A DNA stretch of 64,000 bases from NCBI GenBank assembly GCA_963676075.2, contig CAXXNZ010000024.1:32198-96197 (forward strand), in the 5' to 3' direction. Positions within the stretch are counted from its first letter, which is position 1, and each line of letters starts with the position of its first letter. A program made the position numbers and the translations under genes. This DNA is from Devosiaceae bacterium. GTDB lineage: Bacteria; Pseudomonadota; Alphaproteobacteria; Rhizobiales; Devosiaceae. Below, piece by piece: positions 16,417-53,812 of the stretch. Below the pieces are notes generated by a model. It was not told where the DNA came from. It saw nothing but the letters and a program-made list of their open reading frames with translations, and searched no databases.

Positions 16417-16478
16417 CCGGTTTTGAGGTCACTCAAGCGAGACATGATACGGGATACATACCTGCATTTATGATTTGG

Positions 16479-16512
16479 AAAAAAGATGGGCGCACTCGGT
16501 CAGAGCACGCCC
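16479..16512 (-). terminator. rho-independent terminator of abfA (also at 52079-52112)
   Basis: The minus strand reads GGGCGTGCTC-TGACC-GAGTGCGCCC (10-bp stem including two G-U pairs) followed by ATCTTTTTT. Confidence 0.5.
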
Positions 16513-16539
16513 AGTGCAGGTGGGAGGTATCTGGTGGGA

Positions 16540-18051: not shown

Positions 18052-18104
18052 GGCTCCCTCCCCTAAAAAGCAATATTATTGGTCTGTACCTGTTCCTCGG
18101 ATAC

Positions 18105-18133
18105 ATATGAGCGCGACAAACCCCACCCGTCAA
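18105..18133 (-). promoter_or_regulatory. sigma-70-like promoter for abfA (also at 53705-53733)
   Basis: The minus strand reads TTGACG (18133-18128), a 17-nt spacer, then TCATAT (18110-18105). This resembles the alphaproteobacterial CTTGAC-N17-CTATAT consensus. The 11-bp palindrome CAATA-N-TATTG at 18071-18081 lies between it and the RBS. Confidence 0.35.
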
Positions 18134-18148
18134 GACGCAATCAAACCC

Positions 18149-19102
18149 TCATCGCTGCTGGTACAACCGCAAAACAATGTCCTGGTCGTAGTTCCCAAAT
18201 CCTCGGCCGAAGATGTTGATGCCGCCCGGGTGCTTGGCGTCTTCATGCACGCCGATTCTCAGACGGATGGATTGGTGGTCGTTCAGGTTGAGGTCGGCGA
18301 GGGTGACATCGGAGATGCGAACGCCGTCGACATAGGAGCCGTTCTGGCCGATGCGCCAGGTTTTCAGCTTGCCGTATTGCGAGCCTTTCAGCTTCCACCA
18401 GTCGGGCGTGTAAACCCCGCGCTTGTCGCCGAAATCGCCTGGCGAGGTCCAGGTGCCGACATCGACGCCATTGACGCCGAGCGCAATGTCCGAAGGCCAG
18501 TCGGCGCTGGTGCCCGGCACTTCCGAACTCAATTCGAGACTAAACTCGATGGCGCTCAGCGTGTCGACCGAATGCCGGGCCGTGTTGGGGAACTGGTACT
18601 CGACAAAGCCGCGCGTGAACCACAACAGCCCGGCCTTCATGCGATCCGGATCGAGGAAGGCGTCGGGAACATCGAGCAGCCCGACAATGCCGTCCGGCGT
18701 GCAAAGCCCGCACGGTGCCGCCACTTCGAAACTCGAAAACAGTCCGATCGGCATCGCCACCTCGATGCCGTCGTTGCGCGTACCCTCGAGATCGTCGCGG
18801 AAAGCGACGAGGATTTCGTCATAGGTTGAATGGCAGATCTTCTGATTGCCCTTGCGCGCCTTCTGCAGCTCGGTGCGGATGAGACCAGCCTTTTCGAGCA
18901 GCGCGGCATTGGACGACGCGGTCGATTGCGGCAAGTCGAGCCGCGCCGCTATGTCGTTGATATTGAGTGGTCCTTCGGCATGAAGCAGCTGCAGCATGGC
19001 AATACGAACCGGCGACGCGAGCCCCTTGAGGACATCATTGTCTTCTTCCGGGTCAACCAAAAGAAAATTGCGTGCCAAACCGCCACACCAACCCCGATAC
19101 AC
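18149..19102 (-). CDS. ArsR-family (winged HTH) transcriptional regulator with a large C-terminal domain
   Basis: HTH region LKGLASPVRIAMLQLLHAEGPLNINDIAARLDLPQSTASSNAALLEKAGLI. The start is uncertain: GTG 19102 or TTG 19078, which would give MARNFLLVDPEE. Confidence 0.75.
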   Translation of the reverse strand: MYRGWCGGLARNFLLVDPEEDNDVLKGLASPVRIAMLQLLHAEGPLNINDIAARLDLPQSTASSNAALLEKAGLIRTELQKARKGNQKICHSTYDEILVAFRDDLEGTRNDGIEVAMPIGLFSSFEVAAPCGLCTPDGIVGLLDVPDAFLDPDRMKAGLLWFTRGFVEYQFPNTARHSVDTLSAIEFSLELSSEVPGTSADWPSDIALGVNGVDVGTWTSPGDFGDKRGVYTPDWWKLKGSQYGKLKTWRIGQNGSYVDGVRISDVTLADLNLNDHQSIRLRIGVHEDAKHPGGINIFGRGFGNYDQDIVLRLYQQR

Positions 19103-33059: not shown

Positions 33060-33760
33060 GCCCGCTGTGATAGCAGTCGCGCCGCCCGCCCGTCACCCGT
33101 CCGGTCCAAGGCTTGACCTCGCATCGCCGGCACGCCGGTGCCAAAGACAATCCATCCCACAGCCGCGACGACATAGACTAGCTGCCCCGGACGGCCTGCA
33201 CCTGCCGATATATGAACATGGCCTGATACTTCTGTGGAAGCACACCAGACGGGATTTCGAAATACTTAAAGTTGCACTGGTTTTGTATGGTTTTATTAAC
33301 CGCGGCGCATCACGGACAACAAGGCGCGTATGCCGTCAATACACCTTCCGGGGCCATCCATTTCAGATCAAGTCTTCGGGCAGTACCAAAGTGCGAATCT
33401 TGTCATCAATTCGCGCCACACCAAACATGTATACAATGGACGAAACCTCTGAGTTTTATGCAGGAACTCAAGAGATGGTTTGGGAAAACCCACCCCCTGC
33501 CGCTCATCTTTTCTTCTGAATCCTTCAGAAATGCCAAATTGTCGCAGGTAAATCTTGAGCGCTTTACTTTATCAGACTTAATATGATGAAGATTGAAACC
33601 CAGAAGTAACAAATATTTAATTTCTGATGCTTTAGCGTATTTACAGCTTCCCCGAGATTAAAAGTAACCCGCTTCCAAAAATGTGCCCGCAGCTGAACTT
33701 CCCGGACGCTTCGTCAGTTCGGAAGACGAGCGCATTTTGCCCCAAATCCTGGAGGTCAAG

Positions 33761-34087
33761 ATGACGACCGAACGTGCTCATTCCCTGCAATTGACAGGTG
33801 AGATGACGTTGCGCCACGCCGGTGCGCTGCATGAACAATTGCGCGGCGTTGCCGCGGTTCATGATCGGGTCGACATCGACTGTGCCGGCGTTTCCGAGAT
33901 CGATATCAGCGCGCTCCAGCTGCTGGTCGCCGCATCCAAATCTGCCGTGGCTGCGGGCAAGTCCGTGTCGGTGCGTTTTCCCGAAGGCGGCGCCCTCGAT
34001 ACGGTTTTGCGCCGTGCAGGATTTCTTTCCCCGAGTGGACAGCCAACGGCGCCTGAATCCGGCCCCTGGAAACACGATATCGGCTAG
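33761..34087 (+). CDS. STAS-domain (anti-sigma-antagonist-like) protein at the head of the che cluster
   Basis: The track ORF starts at 33683. The likely start is ATG 33761, preceded by GGAGG (33751-33755). STAS-like sequence LQLTGEMTLRHAGALHEQL...IDCAGVSEIDISALQLLVAA. Confidence 0.65.
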   Translation: MTTERAHSLQLTGEMTLRHAGALHEQLRGVAAVHDRVDIDCAGVSEIDISALQLLVAASKSAVAAGKSVSVRFPEGGALDTVLRRAGFLSPSGQPTAPESGPWKHDIG

Positions 34088-34102: not shown

Positions 34103-34471
34103 ATGACAAAGACAATTCTGACAATCGACGATTCTGCCTCTGTCAGGCAGATGGTATCCATGACGCTGACCGCCGCCGGCCACAAGGTGATCGAGGCCGG
34201 CAATGGCGCGGAAGGCTATGACACGGCCACCAGCGAAACCGTGCACGCCGTGCTCACCGACCTCAATATGCCGGTGATGAACGGGCTCGAGTTCATTCGC
34301 AAATTCCGCGGCCATCCCGCCGCCAAGGGTGTGCCGATCATCCTTTTGACGACTGAATCCGATGAAGGCCTCAAGCGCGAAGCCAAAGAGGCCGGCGCCA
34401 CCGGCTGGATCGTAAAACCCTTCAAACAGGAACAGCTCGTCGCCGTCATCAAGAAGGTGACCGGGCTATGA
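34103..34471 (+). CDS. cheY: chemotaxis response regulator CheY
   Basis: 122-aa single REC domain (ILTIDDS, LTDLNMP, KPF). Confidence 0.9.
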   Translation: MTKTILTIDDSASVRQMVSMTLTAAGHKVIEAGNGAEGYDTATSETVHAVLTDLNMPVMNGLEFIRKFRGHPAAKGVPIILLTTESDEGLKREAKEAGATGWIVKPFKQEQLVAVIKKVTGL

Positions 34472-36519
34472 GTACAGACCCCGCCGACACCTTCCGCCAG
34501 GAAGCGCGCGAACTGCTCGAAACGCTCGAACAAGGGCTTCTCGATCTCGAAAGAACCCCGACCGATACCGACCTGATCAACGCCGTTTTCCGCGCCCTGC
34601 ACACGATCAAGGGCTCGGGCGCCATGTTCGGCTTTGTCGAGGTCGCAGGCTTCGTCCATGAATTCGAAACCGCTTTCGACCGGGTGAGAAAAGGCCAGAG
34701 CGTGGCCACGCCCGAACTGATCGGAGTGGCGCTCGATGCCAAGGACCACGTCCATATCCTCATCGAGACCCCCGATGCCTCCGGCGATCGTGGCGATGCG
34801 ATCATAGCCGCCTTGCGGGCGATCGTTGAAACCGATGAATTTCCCGAATCTCCCCTTGCCGCCGCCCCCGAAAAGCCGGTGGAAGCCGAAACCGCGCCGG
34901 GCCAACTGCGCCGCTGGCGTATCCGTTTCAGCCTGCCCGAGGACAGCCTTGTCCAGGGCACCAACCCCCTGCCGCTGCTCGACGAAATCCGCGAGATCGG
35001 CCCGTGCACGATCACGGCGCTGACCGACGCCGTGCCGCCGCTCGAGGTTATCGATCCCGAAGCCATGCACCTGAGCTGGCAGGTCGATCTCGAAGCGGAA
35101 GATCCGCACGAGGCGATCGACGACGTCTTCCTGTTCATCCGCGATGGCATGGAGCTGTCGATCGAGCCGCTGGACGATGAGGTGGATACTGGCACGCCAG
35201 CCGCGCCGGAAGCCGAGCCCGCACCGGCACAAGCCGAAGAGCCGGTCGCGGCAAAAGACGAACCAACCGCGTCGCCCCAACCGGCAAAGCCGGCGGCGCA
35301 AGACAAGGCCGCCGCGGCAGCGGCAGGCGGTTCGACATCGCTCCGCGTGGCCGCCGAACGGCTCGACGAGTTGATGGACCGGGTCGGCGAACTCGTCATC
35401 GCCCAGTCGCGCCTGTCGCAGATGGCCGCCGGAAGTTCCGATATCAATCTCAAGTCCATCTCTGAAGAACTCGAACGCCTGTCCTCGGGCCTCAGGGACA
35501 CGACCATGGGCATCCGCATGGTGCCGATCGGAACGCTGTTCGGCCGCTTCCGCCGCCTCATCCACGATCTGTCGCGCGATCTCGATAAACAGATCGATTT
35601 CGTCACCACCGGTGAAGAGACTGAACTCGACAAGACCATGATCGAGCGCCTGGCCGATCCGCTGGTGCACCTGATCCGCAACGCCATCGATCATGGCATT
35701 GAGGACACAGGCGACCGGCTCGAGACCGGCAAGGCAAAAAAGGGCACGGTGCGCCTGTCGGCGGTCTACGCCGGTGCAGAAGTGGCGATCTCGGTATCCG
35801 ACGACGGCGCCGGGCTCGATCCGGCGCGCATCCGCATAAAGGCCGAGGAAGCCGGGCTTGTGGCCCCGGATGCCAAGATCAGCGACCAGGATCTCAACAT
35901 GATGATCTTCGCGCCGGGCTTCTCGACGGCCAAGGAAGTGACCTCACTGTCCGGACGGGGCGTCGGCATGGACGTGGTCAAGAAGACCATCGACGGACTT
36001 CGCGGCAATATCGAACTCACGAGCGAAAAAGGCGCCGGCACCACCGTGACGCTGCGGCTGCCGCTGACGCTTGCCATTATCGACGGCATGCTCGTCCGGG
36101 TCGGCTCCGGCCGCTACACCATTCCGCTCTCGGCGGTCGAGGAATGCGTCGAACTGCCGGCCGATGCCGACACCTCCTCACGCGGCCGCCATTTCCTCGA
36201 CATCCGTGGTGAGCTGGTTCCGTTCCTCAGGCTCAGGGAGCAGTTCAATCTGCCGGGCGAGCCCGATGACTATGAAAAGGTTGTCGTCGTGTCCGCCGGC
36301 GAAGGACGGGTCGGACTGGTCGTCGACCAGATCATCGGCAACAACCAGACGGTCATCAAGCAGCTGTCCAAGCTCCATTCCGATCTCAAGTCCTTCTCGG
36401 GCGCCACCATCCTCGGCGATGGAGCCGTCGCTCTCATCCTGGACACGGCGTACCTGGTCAGCACCGGCCAGAGCCGCGAAGACCGCCACGTCAACGACCA
36501 GACCGGGAGGGCAGCATGA
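34468..36519 (+). CDS. cheA: chemotaxis histidine kinase CheA
   Basis: 683 aa. Hpt site FRALHTIKGSGAMFGF, an Ala/Pro-rich linker, HATPase blocks (HLIRNAIDHGIE, DDGAGLD, GRGVGMDVV) and a C-terminal CheW-like domain. Confidence 0.95.
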   Translation: MSTDPADTFRQEARELLETLEQGLLDLERTPTDTDLINAVFRALHTIKGSGAMFGFVEVAGFVHEFETAFDRVRKGQSVATPELIGVALDAKDHVHILIETPDASGDRGDAIIAALRAIVETDEFPESPLAAAPEKPVEAETAPGQLRRWRIRFSLPEDSLVQGTNPLPLLDEIREIGPCTITALTDAVPPLEVIDPEAMHLSWQVDLEAEDPHEAIDDVFLFIRDGMELSIEPLDDEVDTGTPAAPEAEPAPAQAEEPVAAKDEPTASPQPAKPAAQDKAAAAAAGGSTSLRVAAERLDELMDRVGELVIAQSRLSQMAAGSSDINLKSISEELERLSSGLRDTTMGIRMVPIGTLFGRFRRLIHDLSRDLDKQIDFVTTGEETELDKTMIERLADPLVHLIRNAIDHGIEDTGDRLETGKAKKGTVRLSAVYAGAEVAISVSDDGAGLDPARIRIKAEEAGLVAPDAKISDQDLNMMIFAPGFSTAKEVTSLSGRGVGMDVVKKTIDGLRGNIELTSEKGAGTTVTLRLPLTLAIIDGMLVRVGSGRYTIPLSAVEECVELPADADTSSRGRHFLDIRGELVPFLRLREQFNLPGEPDDYEKVVVVSAGEGRVGLVVDQIIGNNQTVIKQLSKLHSDLKSFSGATILGDGAVALILDTAYLVSTGQSREDRHVNDQTGRAA

Positions 36520-37011
36520 GCACCATAGCATCCGGCCCGATGCGTGCCCTGACCATCAGGCTGCAGGACGAACATTTTGCCGTCGAGGCCGAAAACGTTC
36601 GCGAAATCCTCGATCTTGTGCCGATCACCGAGGTGCCCAACGCCTCGCCCTTCGTCAGCGGACTGATCAATGTGCGCGGCCGCGTCGTGCCGTTGGCCGA
36701 TCTCAGGGTGATGTTCGACATGGACCGGCCCAGAGCCGGACGAGGACACCAGGATCGTCGTCATCGAAACCAGTATCGAAGGCGAACCGACCGTTGTCGG
36801 CATCCTCGCCGACAAGGTTCATGACGTCACCGATATCGAGGCCACGGATATCCGCGAGGCGCCGCGCGTCGGCATGCGCTGGCGCCCTGAATTCGTGAAG
36901 GGAATTGGACGCTGGAACGGCGATTTCATCGTCATACCCGACCTCGGACGCATTTTTGAATCACGGGGCGCCTCCGGCGCGACCATGGAAGACGAAAGGG
37001 CTTCTCGATGA
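36516..37011 (+). pseudogene. cheW: CheW coupling protein with one +1 frameshift
   Basis: Frame 0 gives ...GLINVRGRVVPLADLRVMFDMDRP, then junk. Removing one base at CCC/A 36729-36732 gives EPDEDTRIVVIETSIEGEPTVVGILADKVHDV..., ending at TGA 37009-37011, which overlaps the mcp start. 496 nt minus 1 = 165 codons. Confidence 0.75.
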
Positions 37012-39116
37012 GACTGACAATCAAGACCAAACTGACCGCGACCTTTGTCGTTGTGGTGGCACTGTCCGCAGCCAGCATGTTCCTGGCGCTTCAGAGCCTG
37101 GGGCAGCTCAATCAAACCATGGATAATATCATCAACGGCCCCGTGGACCGCTCGATGACCATGTCGAAAATGGAAACCGAGATGGTTTCAATCGCCAACC
37201 AGGCGCGCGGCATGCTGCTCAGCACCACTGCCAACGACATGACAGCCGCCTGGGACAAATTGGTTGCTGATTACGATAACGTCCACGAAAAGGGCAAATC
37301 GCTGATTGGCAAGTTTACCGTCGCCGAGTCCAACACCCAGATGAGCAACTTCGTTTCCATCATGGAGACCTATCGCACCAAGATCGAAGCGATGAAGGAC
37401 GAGGCTCTGAAGAACACTGGTGAGATTGCCTACGCCATCTCGACCGGTGAGGCCAAGACCACAAAGACGGCATTCGACACCGCCATTTCCCGGCTTACCG
37501 CCAGTCTCGAATCCCGCATGAACGGCGGCGATCTGTCAGCCCTGAAACCCTATCAGGCAGCCATCGATTTCGCGCTGGGAGCCGACGAAGCGTTCAGCCG
37601 GCATCGCGGCGTTCTGTTGGCCGCCAGCCATCCCCAAGAGCAGGATCAGTTGATCGAGCTCTATCGGGGAGACCTTGCCACGCTGGCATCGCGCAGCGAT
37701 GCGCTCGGCCGGCTTCTTGGATCCGCGGATCGGCAGATGTTTGACGCCACCCAGACCGAGTTGACAAAACTCACCGCTGCCATGACCGAAGCCGTCGACA
37801 CATCGGCGCAACGTTCCATTCTCAATGCGACCGAGTTGGCCAATGCTGCCGGTGCAGCCGAACGCGCCCAGGCAACGGCGATCCTCACTGATATGGTCGC
37901 GGCCAATGACGTGGTCTTGCAGAAAGCCGTGTCAGACGCCAACGACCTGTATCAGAGCAATTTCATGCTTCTGGTCAGCATTCTGATCGGTTCCGCCGTG
38001 ATCGCCGCGGCAGCGGCCCTCTGGATCATCGTCTCGATTTCCCGTGCGCTGAACAGCGCCGTCAAGCTGGCCAATTCGGTTGCCGATGGCGATCTCAATG
38101 TCAGTGCCGAAGCGCGCGGCAATGATGAAGTCGCCGATCTGATCAAGGCACTCAACGCCATGGTCGGGCACCTGCGCGACGTCGTCGGCAAGGTGACTTC
38201 GGCGACGCGCAACGTCGCCTCCGGCAGTCAGGAACTGTCGGCCACCGCCGAACAGCTCAGCCAGGGCGCTACCGAACAGGCATCCTCGACCGAAGAAGCC
38301 TCGGCATCGATGGAGGAAATGGCCTCGACGATCAAGCAGAGCGCCGACAATGCCTCCCAGACCGAGGTCATTGCCCGCCAGTCCGCCGCCGACGCCAAGG
38401 CCAGCGGTGAAGCGGTCGACAAGTCGGTCAAGGCCATGCAGACCATCGCCGAAAAGATCATGGTCGTGCAGGAAATCGCCCGCCAGACCGATCTGTTGGC
38501 CCTCAACGCCGCCGTCGAGGCCGCACGGGCCGGCGAACATGGTCGCGGTTTTGCGGTCGTCGCCTCCGAAGTCAGAAAGCTCGCCGAACGCAGCCAGACC
38601 GCTGCGGCGGAGATCTCGACCCTTTCCGACGACACGGTCAAGGCGGCACGGTCCTCGGGCGAGATGCTGGCCAAGCTGGTGCCCGACATCCAGCGCACGG
38701 CCGAACTGGTCGAGGAAATCTCGGCCGGAAGCCGCGAGCAAAATGCTGGCGCCGCCCAGATCAACATGGCGATCCAGCAGCTCGACAAGGTGACCCAGCA
38801 GAACACCAGCGCCGCCGAGGAAATGTCGGCGACCTCGGAGGAACTGGCGGGCCAGGCCGAGGAACTGGAAGCGGCCATTTCCTACTTCAAGCTCGACGAT
38901 GCCCATCTTGCTGGCAAGGGCAAGTCGACCCAAGCAGAAAGACGCGCCTCCGCAAAACCCCATGGCGTCGCTAACCTGCGCTCGGCCGTGATGGAAAAGG
39001 CACCGCACATGCAGCCCAGAAAGTCGGCATCGACGGGGTCGGGTGGCTTCGAGCTCGATCTTGGTGACGCCGACGACGAACTCGACAGCGAGTTCACCCG
39101 CGCCGGCGCGGCCTGA
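37008..39116 (+). CDS. methyl-accepting chemotaxis protein (two TM helices, periplasmic helical sensor, HAMP)
   Basis: 702 aa. Signalling tip [40 protein letters not shown]. Confidence 0.9.
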
Positions 39117-39401
39117 GCCAGAACCGCTCGGTGCAGTGTCGGTACGTGATTGTGGGAGATCGGGTGCGGCGAGCATCAGGCTCGCGGCCCCCGGTTACTC
39201 CACCGGCACCTCCACCCGTTCGCGGCATCCATCCTGGGAACGGGTCACCACACCAGACTCGGGGAACCCAATCCGTTCCCTTGCAACGAAATCACCGCTC
39301 CGATCGGCGGTAACTACCAACACAAGACGATTCACGACGATTTCACGAGGACGCTCGGTGCGTCCGGTCATCCGGCACACCGACTGTGAAAGGACCTAAA
39401 C

Positions 39402-41609
39402 GTGAGACTTACAATCAAGGCAAAACTGACCGCCACATTCATAGTGGTTGTGGCCATGTCCGCAGGAGGCATGCTCTTGGCCAACCAAGACCTTGCGAGC
39501 CTCGATGATTCCTTCAACAACGCTATGAACGGCCCGGTCAAACGCATCTCCATTGCCGAGAACATCCAGAAGCTCTCCCTGGAAGTGGCGCAGGCCGAAA
39601 AGGACCTCATCCTGTCCACCGACGAGGCGACGAAGAACCAGATCGTCGCGACAATCGAGGAAGAGGCCAACCAAATCCGCGATCTGGAAAACCAGCTTCG
39701 TGACCTCTCGGATGAGGAAGGCCTGAGGCGGATCGACACGTTCAGCACCGATTGGGAGAGCTATCTCAAGCTCGACGAGCAGATTCAGCATTTTGCGCTG
39801 ATGAACTCCGACACGCATGCGCGTCTTCTTGCACAGAGCGACGGCGCAACGGCCTATGTCGCCATGATCGAGCCACTGCGCGACCTGCAGGATCGGCTTG
39901 CAGACAATCCGATGCCGACAGCCACCGACATGCAGACGCTTGGCGCGGTCGGACGACTGGAAGCCGATATCTCGGGGCTGCGTGCAACCCTGCTCGATGT
40001 CCTGGTGACACAGGACGATCCTGCCGCACAGGCCAAATATTCCGCCGAGGTGGACGACCAGGTTGCCCGGATCACACAGACCATCAAGGCGACGCCCCAG
40101 ATCTCCGCACAGGACCGGGCGCTGTGGCAGGGTTTCTCCGACCGCTTCGGCAAATGGACGGAGATCGCCGACACTTATCGCAACGTCTCGCTCGAGAATG
40201 GCAGCGCCAAGGCGCATGACCTGGCAGTCGGCGAAGCGGCAACGGCCCGGATCCTTGCCATGTCCAAGCTCGATGACGTCATCGCGCTCGAAAACGAGCA
40301 GTTGAACCAGGCCTCGGTCGACAACGGCCAGCTCTACGAACACAGCCGTTCCCTGCTGATCGCGCTGATGATCGCCTCAATCCTGATCGCGGCCGGCGCC
40401 GCCACCTGGATCGTGCTTGGGATCAGTCGTGGCCTGAACCGGGTGATGGCCTCGGTCGGCGCGGTCGCCATTGGCGATCTCGACAACACCATCGAGGTGA
40501 CATCGAACGACGAAATCAAGGACCTTATCGACAAGGTCAATGTGATGACCGAGAACCTGCGCGTAACGGCTGCGATCGCCGACGATATTGCCAATGGCGA
40601 TCTTACCGTCGAACCCAAGCCCTTGTCCGACAAGGACACGCTTGGCCTGGCGCTCGAACGCATGGTCACGCGCCTTCGCAGCGTCATCGCCGATGCCATC
40701 TCCTCGGCGGAGAGCGTCTCCTCGGGCAGTCAGCAGTTGTCATCGACGGCGGAAGAGCTCAGCCAGGGTGCGACCGAGCAGGCCTCGTCCACCGAAGAGG
40801 CATCGGCCTCGATGGAGGAAATGGCCTCTACCATCAAGCAGAGCGCCGATAACGCCTCTCAGACCGAAAAGATCGCTCGCCAATCGGCGTCCGACGCCCA
40901 ACTGAGTGGGGACGCTGTCGGCAAGGCAGTGGCTGCCATGAAGACCATCGCCGAAAAGATATCGGTGGTGCAGGAGATTGCCCGTCAGACCGATCTGCTG
41001 GCGCTCAACGCCGCGGTGGAAGCGGCCCGGGCCGGCGAACACGGTCGAGGCTTCGCCGTGGTGGCTTCCGAAGTCAGAAAGCTCGCCGAACGCAGCCAGT
41101 CGGCCGCCACCGAAATCTCGGCCCTTTCCGGCGACACGGTCACTGCGGCGACATCGGCTGGCGAAATGCTCGGCAAACTGGTGCCGGACATCCAGCGCAC
41201 CGCCGAACTGGTGGGCGAAATCTCGGCCGCTACCCGCGAGCAGAACGCCGGCGCCTCCCAGATCAACACGGCCATCCAGCAGCTCGACCAGGTGACCCAG
41301 CAGAACACCAGCGCAGCCGAGGAAATGTCCTCGACAGCAGAGGAGTTGGCCGGTCAGTCCGAGCAGCTTCAATCAGCGATCAGCTATTTCAAGATCAGCG
41401 CTCAGCACAAAACCGATACGGCTGCCGCAAACGCAACCATGAGCGATGGCACCGGAAAGTCGCGGCCGGGCACGGGCGGCAAGGCAGTGCCAAAGGCGCC
41501 GTCCGCCGCAAAGACCGCTGGCAAGAGCAGGAACAGCGGCGGGTTCGATCTCGATCTGGACCGCGGAGAAGACGAACTCGACGGCGAGTTCAGTCGCAGC
41601 GTAGCTTAG
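39402..41609 (+). CDS. methyl-accepting chemotaxis protein, paralogue of the upstream mcp
   Basis: 735 aa with a GTG start. The first ~25 aa and last ~230 aa are nearly the same as the upstream mcp, while the sensor domain is different. Confidence 0.9.
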
Positions 41610-41623
41610 CGAAGGACCCAAGA

Positions 41624-42085
41624 ATGGCTGACAAACAGCAATATGTCACACTGCGTGTCGCCGAAGAGCTCTACGCAGCGCCAGTGGAGCGGGTGCAGGA
41701 AATTCTCGACGTGTGTCCGATCTCGAGATTGCCGCGTGCCCCGGCTCACCTGCTTGGCATGATCGATGTCCGTGGCGAAGGCACACCGGTATTCGATCTG
41801 CGTGCAACCCTCGATTTTCCGCCCACGGAGGATACGGTGAACACGCGCATCGTCGTGCTCTTCGTGCAGTCCGGAACAGGAGAAACCCGCATCGGCCTCA
41901 GGGCCGACAGGGTGATCGAGGTCACGGCTCTCGATGCCGATGAACTCGATCCACCACCTCAGATCGGGCGCTCGAACGCCGCCCATGCCATCGTCGGCAT
42001 CGGACGGCGCAACGGCGCTTTCGTCACTGTTCTCGACCTCGATCATCTTCTGGCCGAGGACGCAATATCGGTCAGGGCCGCTTGA
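41624..42085 (+). CDS. cheW: CheW coupling protein
   Basis: 153-aa intact CheW-like domain (YVTLRVAEELYAAPVERVQEIL, GMIDVRGEGTPVFDLR). Confidence 0.9.
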   Translation: MADKQQYVTLRVAEELYAAPVERVQEILDVCPISRLPRAPAHLLGMIDVRGEGTPVFDLRATLDFPPTEDTVNTRIVVLFVQSGTGETRIGLRADRVIEVTALDADELDPPPQIGRSNAAHAIVGIGRRNGAFVTVLDLDHLLAEDAISVRAA

Positions 42086-42104
42086 TATCCGGCTGACAAA
42101 ACTG

Positions 42105-42129
42105 CCGGGCGCAGATTCATTGCGCCCGG
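42105..42129 (+). other. intra-operon stem-loop between cheW and cheR
   Basis: CCGGGCGCA (42105-42113) pairs with TGCGCCCGG (42121-42129), with a 7-nt loop and only TT after it. Confidence 0.3.
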
Positions 42130-42148
42130 TTCGAATGGAGTACCCGCG

Positions 42149-43018
42149 GTGCCAAATGTAGCATACGAATTGCCTGCGACCGGCTTGGAGGATCACCTCA
42201 GCGTCCGGGACTTCAATCGGATTTCCGATCTCATCGGAGAAAAGGTCGGGATCAAGCTGCCGCCGGCCAAGAGCAGCCTGGTCGAAGGCCGGCTTCGGAA
42301 ACGCATGAGGGCGGGCGGTTTCGAGAGCCTTGGCGATTATTGCCAATGGCTGTTCAACAACAACGGGTTGGATCAGGAGCTTTTGCATCTGATCGACGCG
42401 GTCACAACAAACAAGACCGACTTCTTCCGCGAGCCCGATCATTACGACAACCTCGAGAAGATGATCGTGCCGGAGTTGCTGCGGGTTCGCGAACGCAACC
42501 CGTTGATCAAGGTCTGGAGCGCGGCCTGCTCCAATGGTGCCGAAGCCTTTTCGGCCGCCATGGTTCTGGAAGACATGCTGCGGGTCAACAACACCTTCCG
42601 CTATGCCGTGCTGGGTACGGATGTGGCGATCTCGGTGCTCGAACAGGCGCGGCGCGCTGTTTATGCGTCGGACTGGATGGAACCGGTCCCCGCCGAAATG
42701 CTGTCACGCTATGTCATGCGCGCGCGTCGCCCAGGTTCACGGCCGGACGTCCGTATCGTCCCGGAGCTCAGGCGCCGGACAGCCTTCCGTCATCTCAACC
42801 TCATGGAAAAGTCGTACGGGATCGACCGGGACGTTGACGTGATCTTCTTGCGCAACGTTCTGATCTATTTCGAGAAACCTGTTCAGGAGGCGGTGATCTC
42901 GCGGCTTGTTGGCCACTTGCGACCCGGCGGGTTTCTTCTGCTTGGCCATTCCGAATCCATGATCGGCAGTGGCTTCTCCCTGACCCAGGTCGCTCCTGCA
43001 ACCTTTCAGAAGATTTGA
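42149..43018 (+). CDS. cheR: chemotaxis protein methyltransferase CheR
   Basis: 289 aa with a GTG start. CheR blocks [14 protein letters not shown] and [14 protein letters not shown]. Confidence 0.9.
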
Positions 43019-44172
43019 GTGCCTCAATGCCGGAAATGGCTGCCAGACCAGCGACGGGAGACAGGATCAAGGTCCTGATCGTCGACGATTCCGCCTCGGT
43101 GCGGACGGCGCTCAGCGACATCCTTTCCAGCGATCCCGCATTCGAGGTGATGGCGCCTGCCGGCGATCCCTATATTGCCGCCGAGCGCATTCGCAAGCAG
43201 GTTCCCGACGTCATCTTCCTCGACATCGAAATGCCACGCATGGACGGCCTGACCTTCCTGAGAAAGCTTCTGGCGCAGAAGCCGATCCCGGTCGTCATCT
43301 GTTCGAGCCTGGCCGAATCCGGGTCGGACACACTGATGCAGGCACTTGAAGCCGGAGCGGTCGACGTGGTGACCAAGCCGCGCATCGACACCGCCCAGTT
43401 CCTGCAGGATTCGCGAATGCGCATCTGTGACGCCGCCAAGGCGGCAGCTCAGGTGCAATTGACCGGGCGGCGACGGGCGCCGCCTCCAGTCAAGGTCGAG
43501 ACCAAGCTTACTGCCGACGTGGTGATTGCGCCGGTGACACCGCAACGGCTTGCCGCGCTCAAGGCGCGCACGCCTCAGACGGAACCGGTGGTCTGCATCG
43601 GCGCCTCGACCGGCGGCACGGAAGCGCTCCGCGAGGTGCTCGTCGACCTGCCGGCGGATGCACCGGGCATCGTTATTGTCCAGCACATGCCGGAAAAGTT
43701 CACCGAAGCCTTTGCCCGCCGGCTCAACACCCTGTGCGCCATGACGGTCAGCGAGGCGCGAAACGGCGACATCCTCGAAGCGGGCAAGGTGCTGATCGCG
43801 CCGGGCAATCGGCACATGGTGCTCCGGCGCAATGCCAAACGTTACACCGTCGATATCCTCGATGGACCTCATGTGGCGCGTCATCGTCCTTCGGTTGACG
43901 TGCTGTTCCGTTCCGCCGCTCAGAATGCCGCCGCCAATGCCGTCGGCTTGCTGTTGACCGGCATGGGCGACGACGGCGCCCAGGGTCTGCTCGAGATGCG
44001 CCAAGCCGGCGCCATGACCTACGCCCAGGACCAGGCGTCGAGCGTCGTGTTCGGCATGCCGGGGGCCGCGGTCGACAAAGGCGCTGCCGTCAAGGTTGTT
44101 TCCCTCGACCGCGTCGCGACAGAAATCGTCGGAATCCGGCGGAGTGGTGCCGAAAAGCAGGTGGATTTGTGA
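43015..44172 (+). CDS. cheB: protein-glutamate methylesterase CheB (REC plus esterase domain)
   Basis: 385 aa. REC block [11 protein letters not shown]...[10 protein letters not shown]. Esterase blocks [23 protein letters not shown]. Confidence 0.9.
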
Positions 44173-45965
44173 TGCCGCAATCAGCAGAACGCAGAGACGA
44201 GCGGGATACGGGGCCGGAACTGACGGCCAGCATTACCGGGCAAATCGGGTCGATTGTCGCCGAACTTGCCACCCCGATCGCGCAGATCGACGAGTCCTTC
44301 GTTCAGGTCGGCAACAAGCTGGTCGAGTGTTCCGGTCGCCTGTCAAAGGTCACCGCCGCCTTCGAGGAATTGCCGGCGGATCTTGAAGGCGCCGAGCTGA
44401 TCAGTGCGACATCCAAGCTCGAAGAGGTGATCGGGCATGCCAGCGAGATTGCCGAGGGCTTCGCCTCCGAACAGTCCGATCTCGACGAGCTGGTCAGGAA
44501 GGTGGATGCCGCCCGTGCGCCGATGGCCAGCCTGCGCAAGGTCATCCAGATGATCGGCATTTTGTCGATTAATGCCCGTGTTGTCGCCGCCGGCATGGTG
44601 GGCGACGGCGACATCGGTGTGTTCACCGACGACATTTCGGACCTTTCCAAGACTGCAACCGCAACCATTGCGCACTTCTTCAAAGCCTATGAACAGCTGT
44701 CGACAGTGGTTCATAAGGCTGCGGCCGAGCGTGACAGGTTCCAGCAGGCACAGCGCGACACGCTGAAACAGGCAGCCGTGCGCCTGTCGGGCAATCTCGA
44801 GCAGATTGTCGGCAAGCGCGAGCAGTCTGCCGCCAATAGCGCCGAGACCACCCGCGTGACGCGTGACATCAACGGCCAGATCGGCACGACGGTCATGGCC
44901 ATGCAGGTCGGTGACGCCACGCGTCAGCGTATCGAGCATCTCGTCGCCGCCTTCGGGGATATCGCCGCCCTCATGACGGGCAAAGCGCCAGCCGGACTTG
45001 ATGTGCCAGATGAGGTCGATGCACCGATGATCGCCTCGCTGCTCCACGTTCTCGACACTCTTCTAGAGGCAGCGCTTGCCGAATATGACGATGGCGTGGT
45101 TGTGGCTGATCGGTCGCTGACAACGCTCATGACGCATGCCGGCGAAATCATGGAGCAAAGCGTTGCCCTTTACGGGCAGAGGGATCACCGGGGGGAATCG
45201 GCTCTCGGTGCACTCGACGACGACATGCGCCAGGTCGGGGTTACGCTCGGGTCGTGCGAGGTTGCCCGCCGCAAGCTCGACGCCGCCGCCACATCGGTCG
45301 GCGAGATGGTGGCCCAGCTTCTCAGCCATGTCGAAGCCGTACAGCATATCGAAGCCAGCATGCGGCTGGTCACGCTCAATGCGGCGATCAAATGCGCCCA
45401 GCTCGGTCCGGAAGGCAAGGCGCTCGACGTCATTGCCAAGCAGTTGCGCGAGCTCACCGCCGATACCGTAACTTCGGCCGAGACGGCCATGAGAGTGCTC
45501 AACGACGCAGCCGAACGTGCAAGCGCAGTCGTCAAGACGGCAAACGGCGAAGCCTCCGGCCGCATTTCCGAACTTGTGGGGGATGCCGAAGAGGCGATCT
45601 CCTTGTTCGAGACGGTCGACAGGCAGTTGAGCGCCGCCCTTTCGCTGCTCGACGACCAATGCGACGCCGCCAAGATCCTGCTCTCGGAAGCCAGGCAGGA
45701 TTTTGCCGGTCACGCCGTCATCTCGGAATCGCTCGCCGATGCGCATATCGAGCTGGGCGAAATGATCACGACGCTCGGCGCGCCGGAAGTGACACGGCTC
45801 GCATCCGATGCATTCGGCGAGGCGTTCCTCGCCCACCTGCGCAGTTACTACACCATGGAAAGTGAACGCCGGATCCACGACGCAATCATCGGCGTCGTGA
45901 TGCAGAATGCCGCTGAGGACAGCACCGATGCCGCCGAAGACGACATGGATCTCGGTCTGTTTTAA
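44169..45965 (+). CDS. cytoplasmic MCP-related protein with two degenerate signalling-tip motifs (function unknown)
   Basis: 598 aa, with no hydrophobic TM segment seen. The start is GTG 44169 or ATG 44172, overlapping the cheB stop. The segments [35 protein letters not shown] and [33 protein letters not shown] align with the MCP tip [31 protein letters not shown]. Confidence 0.55.
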
Positions 45966-51964: not shown

Positions 51965-52139
51965 CGTATTCCTCCCATTCAGACGCCCACCTTTGAGGAC
52001 GCCCATGCATCAGCAGGCTACAATAACCCACACTTTTGTCAACATGATACGGGATACATACCTGCATTTATGATTTGGAAAAAAGATGGGCGCACTCGGT
52101 CAGAGCACGCCCAGTGCAGGTGGGAGGTATCTGGTGGGA

Positions 52140-53651
52140 TCAGGCCTTCAGCCGGATCACCTGATACGAGTAGGCCGGCAGCTCGAGGCTGACGGTTCCG
52201 CCCTCGACCGAGGCGCCCTGGCCGTCGCACGGGGCAACTTCTTCAGGCTTTTCCGGTGAGTTGACCGCTTCGAGATCGGGATGGGTCATCACCTTGTGTT
52301 CGATGATGCGCGCCGCGTCAAAGCCCTGCAGCGCGACGTCGAGCACGATGGCCTCGCTCGGATGGCGGTTGACGATGAACAGCGTCAACGTGCCGTCTTC
52401 CGCATTGTGCACCGCCGAGGCGTCGACATAGGGCACATTGTCGCCATGCTCGCAATCATAGCCCGGGCTGTTAACGTTGAGACGCAGAGCCGTGCCCCGG
52501 CCATAAATCGAGGCGTAGTAATAGGGGTAGTAGATGGTCTGCTTCCACGCCGGACCGCCCTTGACGGTCATGATCGGCGCGATGACGTTCACCAGCTGGG
52601 CGATGGCGGCGATCTTGACCACATCCGAACGCCGGATGAAGGTGTTGAGCGCCAGCCCGACCATCAGCACGTCTTCGAAGTTGTAGATGTCCTCAAGCAG
52701 ACCCGGCGCATGCGGCCAGCCGTCATTGCCCTCGAGGATCTTCCTGTCCTGCTCGTTCGAGTGGTACCACACGTTCCATTCGTCGAACGAGATGTAGACG
52801 TTCTTGTTGGAGCGCTTCTTGGCCTTCACATAATCGATCGTGCTGGCGACCGTGCCGATATAGCGATCCAGTTTCTCGTTCAATGCCAGGAAGTTGGCCG
52901 TGTTCTTCTCCGGATTGCGGAAGTACATGTGCAGTGAGATGTAATCGACGTTCTCGTAGGACTGGTCCAGCACCGTCGCTTCCCAGTCCGGATAGCTCGG
53001 CATGTCGGCATGCGAAGACCCGCACACCACAAGTTCGAGGTTCCTGTCGAAGGCCCTGACCGCCTTGGCGGTCTCGTTGGCCAGATGGCCATATTCGGCG
53101 GCGGACTTGTGACCGACCTGCCAGGGACCGTCCATCTCGTTGCCCAGCGCCCAGAGCTTGACGTTCCACGGGTCCTTGCGGCCGTTCTTCTTCCTGAGAT
53201 CCGACCAGTACGACCCGCCGGGATGATTGACGTATTCGATGAAGCTGCGCGCCTCGTCGAGCCCGCGTGAGCCAAGGTTCAACGCCAGCATCATCTCGGT
53301 GCCGACGCTGTCGGCCCAGTCGGCGAACTCGTGGATGCCGACCTCGTTGGATTCCGAGGTGTGCCAGGCCAGATCGAGCCGGGTCGGACGCTGGTCCTTG
53401 GGACCAACCCCGTCTTCCCAGTTGTAGGCGGAAACGAAATTGCCGCCCGGATAACGCACGATCGGCACATTGAGCGCCTTGACCATGTCGATCACGTCGC
53501 CGCGCATGCCATTGGCATCGGCGGTTGGATGGCCGGGCTCGTAGATGCCGGTATAGATCGCCCGCCCCAGGTGCTCGAGAAAAGCACCGTAGAGCCTCTT
53601 GTCGATCTCGGCGATGGTGAAATCCTTATGCGCCGTGATGGTCGCGCGCAT
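52140..53651 (-). CDS. abfA: alpha-L-arabinofuranosidase, GH51 (second, identical copy)
   Basis: Its 503-aa translation is identical to that of 16540..18051. Confidence 0.9.
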   Translation of the reverse strand: MRATITAHKDFTIAEIDKRLYGAFLEHLGRAIYTGIYEPGHPTADANGMRGDVIDMVKALNVPIVRYPGGNFVSAYNWEDGVGPKDQRPTRLDLAWHTSESNEVGIHEFADWADSVGTEMMLALNLGSRGLDEARSFIEYVNHPGGSYWSDLRKKNGRKDPWNVKLWALGNEMDGPWQVGHKSAAEYGHLANETAKAVRAFDRNLELVVCGSSHADMPSYPDWEATVLDQSYENVDYISLHMYFRNPEKNTANFLALNEKLDRYIGTVASTIDYVKAKKRSNKNVYISFDEWNVWYHSNEQDRKILEGNDGWPHAPGLLEDIYNFEDVLMVGLALNTFIRRSDVVKIAAIAQLVNVIAPIMTVKGGPAWKQTIYYPYYYASIYGRGTALRLNVNSPGYDCEHGDNVPYVDASAVHNAEDGTLTLFIVNRHPSEAIVLDVALQGFDAARIIEHKVMTHPDLEAVNSPEKPEEVAPCDGQGASVEGGTVSLELPAYSYQVIRLKA

Positions 53652-53748
53652 GGCTCCCTCCCCTAAAAAGCAATATTATTGGTCTGTACCTGTTCCTCGG
53701 ATACATATGAGCGCGACAAACCCCACCCGTCAAGACGCAATCAAACCC

Positions 53749-53812
53749 TCATCGCTGCTGGTACAACCGCAAAACAATGTCCTGGTCGTAGTTCCCAAAG
53801 CCTCGGCCGAAG
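53749..53812 (-). pseudogene. 3'-terminal 64-nt remnant of the ArsR-type regulator gene
   Basis: Corresponds to 18149-18212 (stop codon plus the last ~20 codons). Upstream of 53812 the sequence is unrelated to the regulator gene. Confidence 0.7.

What the first reader, a model, noticed from the sequence alone, without database searches (positions are those of the whole stretch)
44169..45965. 598-aa cytoplasmic protein with two degenerate MCP hairpin tips closes the che cluster
The ORF overlaps the cheB stop and has no TM segment. It is predicted by eye to be largely helical. It contains two separate segments that align with the most conserved MCP tip: [35 protein letters not shown] (around aa 125-160) and [33 protein letters not shown] (around aa 405-440). 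In both, key tip residues are substituted, for example the E-A-A-R-A-G-E and R-G-F-A-V-V positions. A tandem double-tip soluble receptor-like protein is not a standard architecture. It could be an array scaffold, an array inhibitor, or a decoy for CheA/CheW.
Basis: partly seen in the sequence, partly recalled or inferred. Interest (0 to 1): 0.65.

Follow-up and report, generated by a model that had tools for sequence, protein, structure and literature searches.

The report
Soluble double-hairpin chemoreceptor-like protein (TlpC-type)
The last gene of this chemotaxis cluster encodes a soluble protein made of two diverged copies of the chemoreceptor signalling hairpin; it is probably the same kind of protein as Rhodobacter sphaeroides TlpC, whose architecture has not been worked out.

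Summary
The ORF is real. Its likely start is the ATG at 44172 (597 aa), which overlaps the cheB stop. The protein is all-helical with no membrane segment and has two receptor-tip-like segments.

- **C-terminal half:** an unambiguous MCP signalling domain. A family profile matches TM1143 at E 3.6e-19, although Pfam scores it below threshold.
- **N-terminal half:** a much more diverged copy. It scores 50.5 against the C half and 41.8 against MCPs in profile-profile comparison, versus at most 26.6 for controls. AlphaFold2 puts a hairpin turn at the predicted tip, and covariation is centred there.
- **Family:** at least 2,447 clusters at 50% identity across Alphaproteobacteria, about 580 aa. No model in Pfam or NCBIfam reaches its curated score. 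The gene almost always follows STAS-cheY-cheA-cheW-mcp-cheW-cheR-cheB, the position of tlpC in R. sphaeroides cheOp2.

Covariation suggests the two equal-length hairpins pack side by side with both tips at one end. That would make a single-chain mimic of a receptor dimer, unlike DosM, whose tips lie at opposite ends. The most conserved sites are an invariant polar motif at the far end of the bundle and a C-terminal LDD[LI][FL]F tail.

I could not obtain the TlpC sequence, so membership rests on synteny, size and published description. Function is inferred: an array component that binds CheW/CheA.

The parts
44172..45965 (+). Gene for the soluble double-hairpin protein (597 aa from the ATG at 44172; a GTG at 44169 lies one codon upstream). 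Residue numbers in this report count from the GTG codon as residue 1.
44214..44594 (+). Hairpin 1, descending arm N1 (aa 16-142)
   Evidence: AF2 helix 16-142; covariation with aa 149-269 centred on 143-148
44541..44648 (+). First, strongly diverged tip segment (aa 125-160); predicted turn at aa 143-148 (44595-44612)
   Evidence: AF2 loop 143-148; tip-to-tip alignment with Tm14 and TM1143 and with the C tip
44613..44975 (+). Hairpin 1, ascending arm C1 (aa 149-269)
44895..44942 (+). Invariant polar motif M-A-[LM][12 protein letters not shown] (aa 243-258), about 100 residues from the tip. Q246, D249, Q253, R254 and H257 are 100% conserved in the 253-sequence alignment (252 family members plus the window protein).
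44976..45020 (+). Pro/Gly-rich linker between the two hairpins (aa 270-284), non-helical in the model and variable in the family
45021..45803 (+). Hairpin 2 (aa 285-545), homologous to the whole MCP signalling domain
   Evidence: profile against TM1143 at E 6e-10 and 3.6e-19; Foldseek top 14 hits are all MCPs; covariation centred on aa 411-416
45321..45503 (+). Second tip segment (aa 385-445): [32 protein letters not shown], with G413-P-E-G416 (45405-45416) at the position of the canonical G-E-x-G turn
45810..45890 (+). C-terminal short helices (aa 548-574) carrying the conserved Y-T-M-x-x-E-R-x-x-H motif (aa 561-570, 45849-45878). They covary with the base of the bundle (aa 254-270, 282-300, 522-541).
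45891..45962 (+). Low-confidence acidic tail (aa 575-598) ending ...EDDMDLGLF. Family consensus for the last six residues is L-D-D-[LI]-[FL]-F.
   Evidence: pLDDT below 50; tail statistics on 252 members
33683..34087 (+). STAS-domain gene that opens the conserved cluster
   Evidence: PF13466 at E 2e-16; same position in L081, L083 and L085
34103..36519 (+). cheY (34103-34471) and cheA (34468-36519)
36516..37008 (+). First cheW, frameshifted near 36730 in this window
37008..41609 (+). Two transmembrane MCP genes with 4HB, HAMP and MCPsignal domains (37008-39116, 39402-41609)
41624..44172 (+). cheW (41624-42085), cheR (42149-43018) and cheB (43015-44172)

Best explanation
This gene encodes a soluble, chemoreceptor-derived component of the CheA/CheW signalling array. 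It belongs to a large alphaproteobacterial family that very probably includes R. sphaeroides TlpC.

Shown:
- The protein is an internal tandem duplication of the MCP signalling hairpin.
- The C-terminal copy (aa 285-545) keeps a recognisable receptor tip.
- The N-terminal copy (aa 16-269) has diverged almost beyond sequence recognition.
- There is no sensor domain, HAMP domain, membrane segment or methylation-site consensus.

Supported by covariation, moderate strength:
- The two equal-length hairpins (about 125 residues per arm, roughly 18 nm) lie side by side with both tips at the same end.
- One chain would then form the four-helix bundle that an ordinary receptor makes as a homodimer, but with two non-equivalent tips.

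Inferred:
- The tips dock the protein into receptor arrays through CheW and the CheA P5 domain, as published two-hybrid data show for TlpC.
- It acts there as a structural or regulatory element, not as a ligand-specific receptor.
- Regulation or partner recruitment happens at the other end of the bundle. An invariant polar cluster sits there (Q246, D249, T251, R252, Q253, R254, E256, H257 together with Y561, T562, M563, E566, R567, H570). So does a flexible tail ending in a conserved acidic-aromatic peptide.
- The gene is translationally coupled to cheB.
For: Homology of the C half to MCP signalling domains. Foldseek on the C-half model gives MCPs as its top 14 hits (2ch7 E 9e-6, TM 0.56-0.58).

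Homology of the N half to the C half and to MCPs, with controls. AF2 places a hairpin turn at aa 143-148.

Covariation (mean-field DCA on 253 sequences, effective number about 171):
- Hairpin centres fall at aa 143-148 and 411-416.
- The signal persists 30-125 residues from the tips: ranks 2/197 and 0/185 against off-centre controls.
- It persists on variable columns only, with best offsets 289-294 and 827-828.
- N1 and C2 pack antiparallel at i+j = 554-559, where 559.5 is expected for level tips. This holds in every height bin (z 4.5 and rank 0/47 for aa 30-115) and is the best of 24 offsets on variable columns.
- The C-terminal helices covary with the base of the bundle.

Family size: 2,447 clusters at E <= 1e-3, with nearly all of the top 150 being 550-615 aa.

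Synteny: conserved in Devosiaceae, where cheB is adjacent in 69 of 75 loci. Also in Zavarzinia, Methylosinus and a Phaeovulum-like Rhodobacterales contig.

Literature:
- cheOp2 gene order (PMC7277832).
- TlpC is 580 aa, soluble, lacks HAMP and a methylation region, and localises to the cytoplasmic cluster (PMC3964821).
- TlpC binds CheW4 and CheA3 and has no obvious adaptation sites (PMC6829392).

No methylation consensus was found in the window protein.
Against: - Both AlphaFold2 runs give a secondary-structure string with an unbroken helix from aa 345 to 457/458, running through the C tip, and a 2-3 residue break at aa 458-460. Coordinates cannot be inspected here, so this conflict with homology and covariation is unresolved.
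- Pfam scores the C half below its gathering score and does not see the N half.
- The covariation set is small. Conserved blocks give inflated scores with each other. The C1-N2 and N1-N2 contacts are weak or ambiguous on variable columns.
- Covariation cannot distinguish packing within one chain from packing between two chains.
- I could not obtain the R. sphaeroides TlpC sequence, and the searches that could reach Rhodobacterales did not return it.
- No binding, localisation or activity was tested here.
Confidence: 0.6

Rival explanations
1. DosM-like double-ended scaffold. The two hairpins point in opposite directions. The protein spans a two-layered cytoplasmic array and plugs one tip into each CheA/CheW baseplate.
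For: There are two signalling-type hairpins in tandem. DosM sets the precedent (PMC7534058). R. sphaeroides cytoplasmic arrays are double-layered and label with TlpC-GFP (PMC3964821).
Against: Covariation places N1 against C2, antiparallel and at equal distance from the two tips, along the whole arm. An end-to-end rod does not predict this. The DosM partner with three concatenated CheW domains is absent; both CheW genes here encode single domains of about 153-165 aa. The linker joins the two hairpins at their bases, and all four arms have the same length.
Confidence: 0.12
2. Single-tip protein. Only the N-terminal hairpin has a true turn. The MCP-like motif of the C half lies in the middle of a long straight helix, as the AlphaFold2 secondary-structure strings suggest, and the chain reverses at aa 459-460.
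For: Two independent AF2 runs, one of the full-length protein with 55 sequences and one of the C half with 150 sequences, give an unbroken helix from aa 345 to 457/458 at pLDDT of about 87-94.
Against: Covariation gives no signal for pairings centred on 459.5 or 340.5: z -0.6 and -1.0, and ranks 22/35 and 17/27 on variable columns. It peaks at aa 411-416 instead. The two glycines G413 and G416 sit at the canonical turn positions and are conserved. Profile alignment to TM1143 runs along both arms with the tips in register.
Confidence: 0.12
3. Array-tethered CheY dock or CheY-P phosphatase. The invariant D249-x-T-x-Q253 on an exposed helix face would play the part of CheZ D143/Q147. The C-terminal ...DD..L.F tail would play the part of the CheZ C-terminal CheY-binding peptide.
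For: E. coli CheZ reads MAQDFQDLTGQVIKR and ends VDDLLDSLGF. The family reads MALQ[VI]GDxTRQRIEH and ends LDD[LI][FL]F after a flexible linker. The motif is more conserved than either tip. No known CheY-P phosphatase gene (CheZ, CheC or CheX type) is present in this cluster.
Against: There is no sequence or profile similarity to CheZ. CheZ did not appear in PDB or Pfam searches run at permissive thresholds. The same stretch also resembles the conserved MCP motif [13 protein letters not shown] at the equivalent position of an ordinary receptor, so it may be an inherited receptor feature. The resemblance covers short motifs only.
Confidence: 0.07
4. Docking receptor for the adaptation enzymes. 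The conserved C-terminal peptide on a flexible linker tethers CheR and/or CheB, as the NWETF pentapeptide does in E. coli. It would serve the neighbouring MCPs, which lack such a tail.
For: The gene directly follows cheR-cheB and overlaps the cheB stop. The two MCPs of the cluster end without an xWxxF motif. The tail has a pentapeptide-like layout: a conserved aromatic C terminus about 38 residues (median) beyond the start of the Y-T-M-x-x-E-R motif in the last conserved helix.
Against: The tail lacks the tryptophan that defines known CheR-binding pentapeptides; W occurs in the last six residues of only 1 of 252 members. No methylation consensus is present in the protein itself. No test of CheR's pentapeptide-binding features was made.
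Confidence: 0.09

Closest known systems
TlpC of Rhodobacter (Cereibacter) sphaeroides
   Same: It is the last gene of a cheY-cheA-cheW-...-cheW-cheR-cheB operon (PMC7277832). Size is about 580 aa. It is soluble, with no HAMP domain or methylation region and only weak similarity to MCPs (PMC3964821, PMC6829392). Rhodobacterales members of the family exist.
   Different: In this window and its relatives one to three MCP genes sit between the two cheW genes. Published descriptions say TlpC lacks the glycine turn, whereas this family keeps G-x-x-G in the C tip. Whether Devosiaceae have a separate cytoplasmic cluster is unknown.
DosM (VC1403) of Vibrio cholerae, the double signalling domain receptor of F9-class systems
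   Same: It is a soluble receptor consisting essentially of two signalling hairpins in tandem with no sensor domain, thought to act as an array scaffold (PMC7534058, PMC9321776).
   Different: DosM has two readily recognised signalling domains and works with a CheW of three concatenated domains. It forms a rod with one tip at each end. Here one copy is highly diverged, the CheW proteins have single domains, and covariation places both tips at the same end.
Canonical soluble MCPs (Thermotoga maritima Tm14 and TM1143 cytoplasmic domain; R. sphaeroides TlpT)
   Same: They have a long antiparallel helical hairpin with a conserved tip that binds CheW and CheA P5. The best sequence and fold matches of both halves are to these proteins.
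   Different: Those proteins have one hairpin per chain and form the four-helix bundle as homodimers. They score above the Pfam threshold, and most carry methylation sites. This protein has two non-identical hairpins per chain, scores below threshold and has no methylation consensus.
CheZ (E. coli)
   Same: It is a long helical hairpin bundle with a D-x-x-x-Q pair on a helix and an acidic, hydrophobic C-terminal peptide on a flexible linker.
   Different: There is no detectable homology. The resemblance is limited to two short motifs. In this protein a whole MCP-type hairpin lies between the motif and the tail.

Membership tests
MCP signalling domain (Pfam PF00015) | Score above the Pfam gathering threshold | tested here: not met
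   20.1 bits against 34.6 for the window protein, one stretch at aa 380-478. Of 55 relatives, 50 match, and the best E-value among them is 1.6e-5.
MCP signalling domain (Pfam PF00015) | Profile-level homology to solved MCP cytoplasmic domains along both arms, with the tip in register | tested here: met
   C half: TM1143 at E 6e-10 and 3.6e-19, Tm14 at 6e-12, Tsr at 4e-11. N half: weaker, Tm14 at E 0.009 and hhalign score 41.8 against controls of at most 26.4.
MCP signalling domain (Pfam PF00015) | Antiparallel helical hairpin centred on the conserved tip | tested here: inconclusive
   Covariation is centred on aa 143-148 and 411-416. AF2 shows a turn at 143-148, but its secondary-structure string shows no break at 413-416.
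MCP signalling domain (Pfam PF00015) | Methylation-site consensus [ASTG][ASTG]xx[EQ][EQ]xx[ASTG][ASTG] | tested here: not met
   No match in the window protein, even with the loose pattern.
TlpC (R. sphaeroides cheOp2) | Encoded directly after cheB at the end of a cheY-cheA-cheW-...-cheW-cheR-cheB operon | tested here: met
   Window; 69 of 75 Devosiaceae loci; Zavarzinia, Methylosinus and a Phaeovulum-like contig. cheOp2 order from PMC7277832.
TlpC (R. sphaeroides cheOp2) | About 580 aa, soluble, no HAMP domain, no methylation region, only weak MCP similarity | tested here: met
   597-598 aa here; family members 550-615 aa. No HAMP or membrane segment. Description of TlpC in PMC3964821 and PMC6829392.
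TlpC (R. sphaeroides cheOp2) | Full-length sequence similarity to TlpC itself | not testable with these tools
   The TlpC sequence was not retrievable. The genome scan listed only its best 80 loci, all Devosiaceae-like. Searches seeded with distant and Rhodobacterales members returned 25 and 13 proteins, none of them named as R. sphaeroides.
TlpC (R. sphaeroides cheOp2) | Localises to a chemosensory cluster and binds CheW and CheA | not testable with these tools
   Experimental property (PMC6829392).
DosM / F9-class double signalling domain receptor | Two signalling domains in tandem in one chain | tested here: met
   Internal duplication: hhalign score 50.5, E 8e-7, 234 columns. Only one copy is visible to Pfam.
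DosM / F9-class double signalling domain receptor | Partner CheW with three concatenated CheW domains in the cluster | tested here: not met
   Both CheW genes encode a single domain, 153 aa and about 164 aa once the frameshift is repaired. The same holds in relatives.
DosM / F9-class double signalling domain receptor | The two tips lie at opposite ends of an extended rod | tested here: not met
   N1-C2 antiparallel covariation at equal height from the tips (i+j 554-559). The evidence is of moderate strength.
CheZ | Sequence or profile homology to CheZ (PF04344) | tested here: not met
   hhalign of E. coli CheZ against the family gives probability 0.2%. CheZ is absent from permissive Pfam and PDB searches.
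CheZ | Catalytic D-x-x-x-Q on a helix plus a C-terminal CheY-binding peptide | tested here: inconclusive
   D249 and Q253 are invariant, and the tail LDD[LI][FL]F resembles VDDLLDSLGF. These are motif resemblances only.
Pentapeptide-bearing (NWETF-type) receptors | C-terminal xWxxF motif on a flexible linker | tested here: not met
   A flexible linker and a terminal F are present (206 of 252 members), but W occurs in the last six residues of only 1 of 252.

The most novel reading that the evidence does not exclude
The TlpC-type family may be a single-chain mimic of a receptor dimer whose two unequal tips only anchor it in the array. Its real function would then sit at the other end of the bundle. 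The invariant Q-x-G-D-x-T-R-Q-R-x-E-H / Y-T-M-x-x-E-R-x-x-H cluster and the CheZ-like C-terminal peptide would together bind CheY-P and dephosphorylate it (or otherwise process it) at the array. That would make it an alphaproteobacterial counterpart of CheZ built on a receptor scaffold.
Probability: 0.06. Interest if true: 0.85.

Novelty: new member of a known kind. Interest (0 to 1): 0.55.

Why it matters
TlpC has been known since 2002 as essential for R. sphaeroides chemotaxis and as a component of its cytoplasmic receptor cluster. The papers I could read still describe it as lacking clear homology to receptors, and none of them assigns it a mechanism.

If this family includes TlpC, the analysis here gives it a concrete anatomy:
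- two diverged receptor hairpins, probably folded into one four-helix bundle with two non-equivalent tips;
- an invariant polar site at the opposite end of the bundle;
- a conserved C-terminal peptide.

Each of these can be tested directly by mutagenesis, crosslinking and binding assays. A single-chain receptor "dimer" would also be a natural tool for asking what each of the two tips of a receptor dimer does in the array. That question cannot be addressed with symmetric homodimers.

The family is large (thousands of sequence clusters). No Pfam or NCBIfam model reaches its curated score for it. Members are annotated inconsistently as hypothetical protein, chemotaxis protein or "type VII secretion target".

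Tried and rejected
1. BLASTP of the N half against the C half, and hhalign with the narrow Devosiaceae alignment at default settings. These found nothing significant for the N half. The signal appeared only with the 253-sequence alignment and a greedier alignment setting, so I ran reversed and heptad-shuffled controls.
2. Fold search of the full-length model against the PDB. It returned only generic long coiled-coil matches and was uninformative.
3. Attempts to obtain R. sphaeroides TlpC. The genome scan listed only its best 80 of 196 loci, all Devosiaceae-like. Cluster look-up of 10 distant representatives named only a Zavarzinia protein. Profile and single-sequence searches aimed at Rhodobacterales found Phaeovulum and Rhodosalinus but not R. 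sphaeroides. The original TlpC, DosM and cytoplasmic-receptor review papers are not held.
4. CheZ homology: rejected at the sequence level.
5. Raw DCA top pairs were dominated by gap-rich columns. I recomputed on low-gap columns. I then found that conserved blocks score highly with one another whatever their position. I therefore rely on bins far from the tips and on variable-column tests with off-register controls.
6. I first read the 2-residue break at aa 459-460 in the AF2 string as a chain reversal. Covariation does not support this, and without coordinates the AF2 topology cannot be settled. The Foldseek scores of the C-half model (TM 0.56-0.58 to TM1143) fit either reading.
7. Membrane anchoring by the hydrophobic stretch at aa 125-143: rejected. 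The stretch contains N135 and R137 and lies in the arm of a confidently predicted soluble hairpin.
Full report
**1. The gene.** An ORF runs from 44169 (GTG) to 45965 on the + strand. An ATG lies one codon downstream at 44172, preceded by AGGTGG 7 nt upstream, and it shares its A with the cheB stop codon (TGATG). An identical database protein is 597 aa, so 44172 is the likely start. Residue numbers below count from the GTG codon as residue 1.

The gene closes a cluster on the + strand:
- STAS: 33683-34087
- cheY: 34103-34471
- cheA: 34468-36519
- cheW: 36516-37008
- two transmembrane MCP genes: 37008-39116 and 39402-41609
- cheW: 41624-42085
- cheR: 42149-43018
- cheB: 43015-44172

Downstream, on the other strand, lie ABC-transporter genes. 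The window contains no flagellar genes.

**2. The observation.** Pfam gives one MCPsignal hit, below threshold: E 6e-4, 20.1 bits against 34.6, at aa 380-478. It finds nothing at aa 125-160. NCBIfam gives nothing useful.

More sensitive tests change the picture for the C half.
- A profile of 55 relatives matches the whole TM1143 cytoplasmic domain at E 6e-10, with profile positions 272-546 aligned to residues 24-308 and the tips in register.
- A profile of 62 distant relatives gives TM1143 at 3.6e-19, Tm14 at 6e-12 and Tsr at 4e-11.

The C half is therefore a real MCP signalling domain.

The N half needed more work.
- BLASTP and a first hhalign run found nothing.
- Its profile nevertheless has MCPs as its best PDB matches, all tip to tip: Tm14 at E 0.009, Tm14 fragments at 0.023 and 0.028, TM1143 at 0.07.
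- The same profile weakly hits the C tip, in register, in 212 of 264 family proteins.
- With a 253-sequence alignment, hhalign aligns the N half to the C half over 234 columns (score 50.5, E 8e-7). It aligns the N half to a local MCP profile over 202 columns (score 41.8, E 2e-5).
- Reversed and heptad-block-shuffled controls score 12.6-26.6.

Against the canonical tip [28 protein letters not shown]:
- The C tip reads [28 protein letters not shown]. Both turn glycines are kept.
- The Devosiaceae consensus of the N tip reads [28 protein letters not shown]. In ungapped register it keeps the N, two A, the F, a V, the acidic residue and the L.

In detail: two diverged tips, one far more diverged than the other.

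**3. Fold.** AlphaFold2 on the full protein (55 sequences, pLDDT 85.7) gives helices 16-142, a loop at 143-148 and helices 149-269. This is a hairpin whose turn falls exactly at the N tip. A non-helical linker follows at 270-284, then helices to 574 and a disordered tail.

In that run and in a second run on the C half alone (150 sequences, pLDDT 90.1), the secondary-structure string shows an unbroken helix from 345 to 457/458. It passes through the C tip, with a short break at 458-460. I cannot see coordinates. Foldseek places the C-half model among MCP cytoplasmic domains: the top 14 hits are all MCPs, with 2ch7 at E 9e-6 and TM 0.56-0.58. That does not fix the position of the turn.

To obtain independent evidence I computed mean-field DCA on 253 full-length family members (effective number about 171) and summed scores along anti-diagonals.
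- The N half peaks at a centre of aa 143-148 (z 5.4, next best elsewhere 2.3). This matches the AF2 turn and serves as a positive control.
- The C half peaks at aa 411-416 (z 6.7). Nothing appears at the centres implied by a reversal at 459-460 or at 337-344 (z -0.6 and -1.0).

Conserved blocks score highly with each other whatever their position, so I repeated the tests in two stricter ways.
- Away from the tips (30-125 residues out): ranks 2/197 and 0/185 against off-centre controls.
- On variable columns only: best offsets are 289-294 and 827-828, and the AF2-string alternatives rank 22/35 and 17/27.

I conclude that both halves are hairpins centred on the tip motifs. The AF2 string remains an unexplained discrepancy.

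**4. Arrangement of the two hairpins.** The four arms have nearly equal lengths (127, 121, 128 and 129 residues), and the linker joins the hairpins at their bases.

Cross-half covariation peaks at i+j = 554-556 (z 6.3, elsewhere at most 2.9) and at j-i = 267-275 (z 4.8). Hairpins lying side by side with level tips would give 559.5 and 268.5.

Split by helix pair and by height:
- The N1-C2 antiparallel contact holds in every bin, including far from the tips (aa 30-115: z 4.5, rank 0/47).
- C1-N2 is patchy.
- The diagonal pairs N1-N2 and C1-C2 show signal mainly near the tips.

On variable columns, N1-C2 is still the best of 24 offsets and peaks at 558-559. C1-N2 is ambiguous.

This is the pattern of a receptor-like four-helix bundle built from two different hairpins. 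It is not the pattern expected for a DosM-like rod with tips at opposite ends. Covariation cannot say whether the packing is within one chain or between two chains. I rate the side-by-side bundle at about 60%.

The short C-terminal helices (548-574) covary with aa 254-270, 282-300 and 522-541, which form the base of the bundle.

**5. Family and context.** The N-half profile finds 2,447 clusters (50% identity) at E <= 1e-3, 1,175 at 1e-10 and 251 at 1e-30. Nearly all of the best 150 are 550-615 aa with the match at the N terminus.

Named members come from:
- Devosia and Pelagibacterium
- Zavarzinia
- Methylosinus, Shinella, Rhizobium, Novosphingobium, Azospirillum and Agrobacterium replicons
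- the Rhodobacterales genera Phaeovulum and Rhodosalinus

They are annotated as hypothetical protein, chemotaxis protein or "type VII secretion target".

Synteny is conserved. In 69 of 75 Devosiaceae loci with enough upstream sequence, cheB ends next to the gene, and in 59 of them with a 4-nt overlap. The order STAS-cheY-cheA-cheW-mcp(s)-cheW-cheR-cheB-X recurs in Zavarzinia, Methylosinus and a Phaeovulum-like contig. On an Agrobacterium leguminum plasmid a ParA-family gene follows cheB, and the X-like gene lies next to it on the other strand.

**6. Conserved sites.** Across 253 sequences at 22-100% identity, the most conserved stretch is not a tip. It is aa 243-258. Q246, D249, Q253, R254 and H257 are 100% conserved, R252 99%, E256 97%, and T251 and G248 94%. 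It lies about 100 residues from the N tip.

Also highly conserved are Y561 (98%), T562 (91%), M563 (99%), E566 (99%), R567 (100%) and H570 (94%) in the C-terminal helices, and G48 and L51 in N1.

The last six residues follow L-D-D-[LI]-[FL]-F. F is terminal in 206 of 252 members, and W is essentially absent. The median distance from the start of the Y-T-M-x-x-E-R motif to the C terminus is about 38 residues. The window protein ends DDMDLGLF. No methylation consensus is present.

The motif and the tail resemble E. coli CheZ (MAQDFQDLTGQ...VDDLLDSLGF). There is no CheZ homology. The motif resembles the conserved MCP stretch [13 protein letters not shown] about equally well.

**7. What it most likely is.** It is a soluble, receptor-derived array component of the TlpC type.

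The literature gives the cheOp2 order as cheY3-cheA2-cheW2-cheW3-cheR2-cheB1-tlpC (PMC7277832). It describes TlpC as follows:
- 580 aa, without a membrane segment, HAMP domain or methylation region (PMC3964821);
- located in the cytoplasmic cluster, binding CheW4 and CheA3, with no obvious adaptation sites, and its loss makes the cluster diffuse (PMC6829392);
- encoded with the proteins of the membrane-associated cluster yet localising to the cytoplasmic one (PMC10924463).

Position, size and properties all match.

DosM of V. cholerae is the described precedent for a two-signalling-domain receptor (PMC7534058, PMC9321776). It differs in three ways: its partner is a CheW of three concatenated domains, both of its domains are easily recognised, and its tips lie at opposite ends.

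**8. Mechanism.**
- Shown: the internal duplication of the signalling hairpin; the absence of sensor, HAMP, membrane and methylation features; the tight linkage to cheB.
- Supported: both hairpins fold at the tip motifs and pack side by side.
- Inferred: the tips insert into CheW/CheA lattices. The protein has a structural or regulatory role and is not a ligand-specific receptor. The invariant base cluster and the tail are where a partner or small molecule acts.

Candidate partners for the tail are CheY (resemblance to CheZ and FliM peptides) and CheR/CheB (layout like a pentapeptide tether, but without the tryptophan). Neither was tested.

**9. Verdict.** The gene is best filed as a new member of a known but poorly understood kind (TlpC-type). 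The architectural reading does not appear in the papers I could read. Interest is moderate to high for chemotaxis specialists, mainly because it turns TlpC into a set of testable structural hypotheses.

Noticed in passing
window 36516-37008: The first cheW of the cluster is split by a frameshift near 36730. Residues 1-72 and 72-164 of the 164-aa orthologue align at 94% and 97% identity in two different frames. This is either an assembly error or a pseudogene.
   Followed up: yes
window 16442-18199 and 52042-53799: An exact 1,758-bp duplicate (100% identity, 35,600 bp apart) carries a 503-aa alpha-L-arabinofuranosidase ORF (PF06964). It is either a very recent duplication or an assembly artefact.
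   Followed up: partly
window 33683-34087: A STAS-domain gene lies directly upstream of cheY. The same arrangement occurs in Zavarzinia (L081), Methylosinus (L083) and a Phaeovulum-like contig (L085), so it is probably part of the conserved chemotaxis cluster.
   Followed up: partly
L082 10956-13462 (Agrobacterium leguminum plasmid p1): Here the family member (576 aa, annotated 'chemotaxis protein') lies next to a ParA-family gene that follows cheB, and on the opposite strand. This recalls the tlpT-ppfA pair that positions the R. sphaeroides cytoplasmic cluster.
   Followed up: no
window 38147-38446 and 40649-40948: The two MCP genes of the cluster are paralogues. A 300-nt stretch is 74% identical, and the N termini are nearly identical ([13 protein letters not shown] / [13 protein letters not shown]). 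Neither ends in an xWxxF pentapeptide.
   Followed up: partly
plasmid records (e.g. CP132317.1, NZ_CP093339.1): Some members of this family are annotated 'type VII secretion target' in public records. This is probably a mis-annotation caused by their long helical-hairpin character.
   Followed up: no
window 44895-44942 and 45849-45878: The invariant polar residues include three Arg, two His, Asp, two Glu, two Gln and a Tyr. In the four-helix model they come together at the base of the bundle. This looks like a binding or catalytic pocket, but nothing identifies the ligand.
   Followed up: partly
models m273f1933cd64 and mb01b887c70a5 (aa 345-458): The AlphaFold2 secondary-structure strings show no break at the conserved G413-P-E-G416, although homology and covariation place a hairpin turn there. 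I could not resolve this without coordinates.
   Followed up: partly
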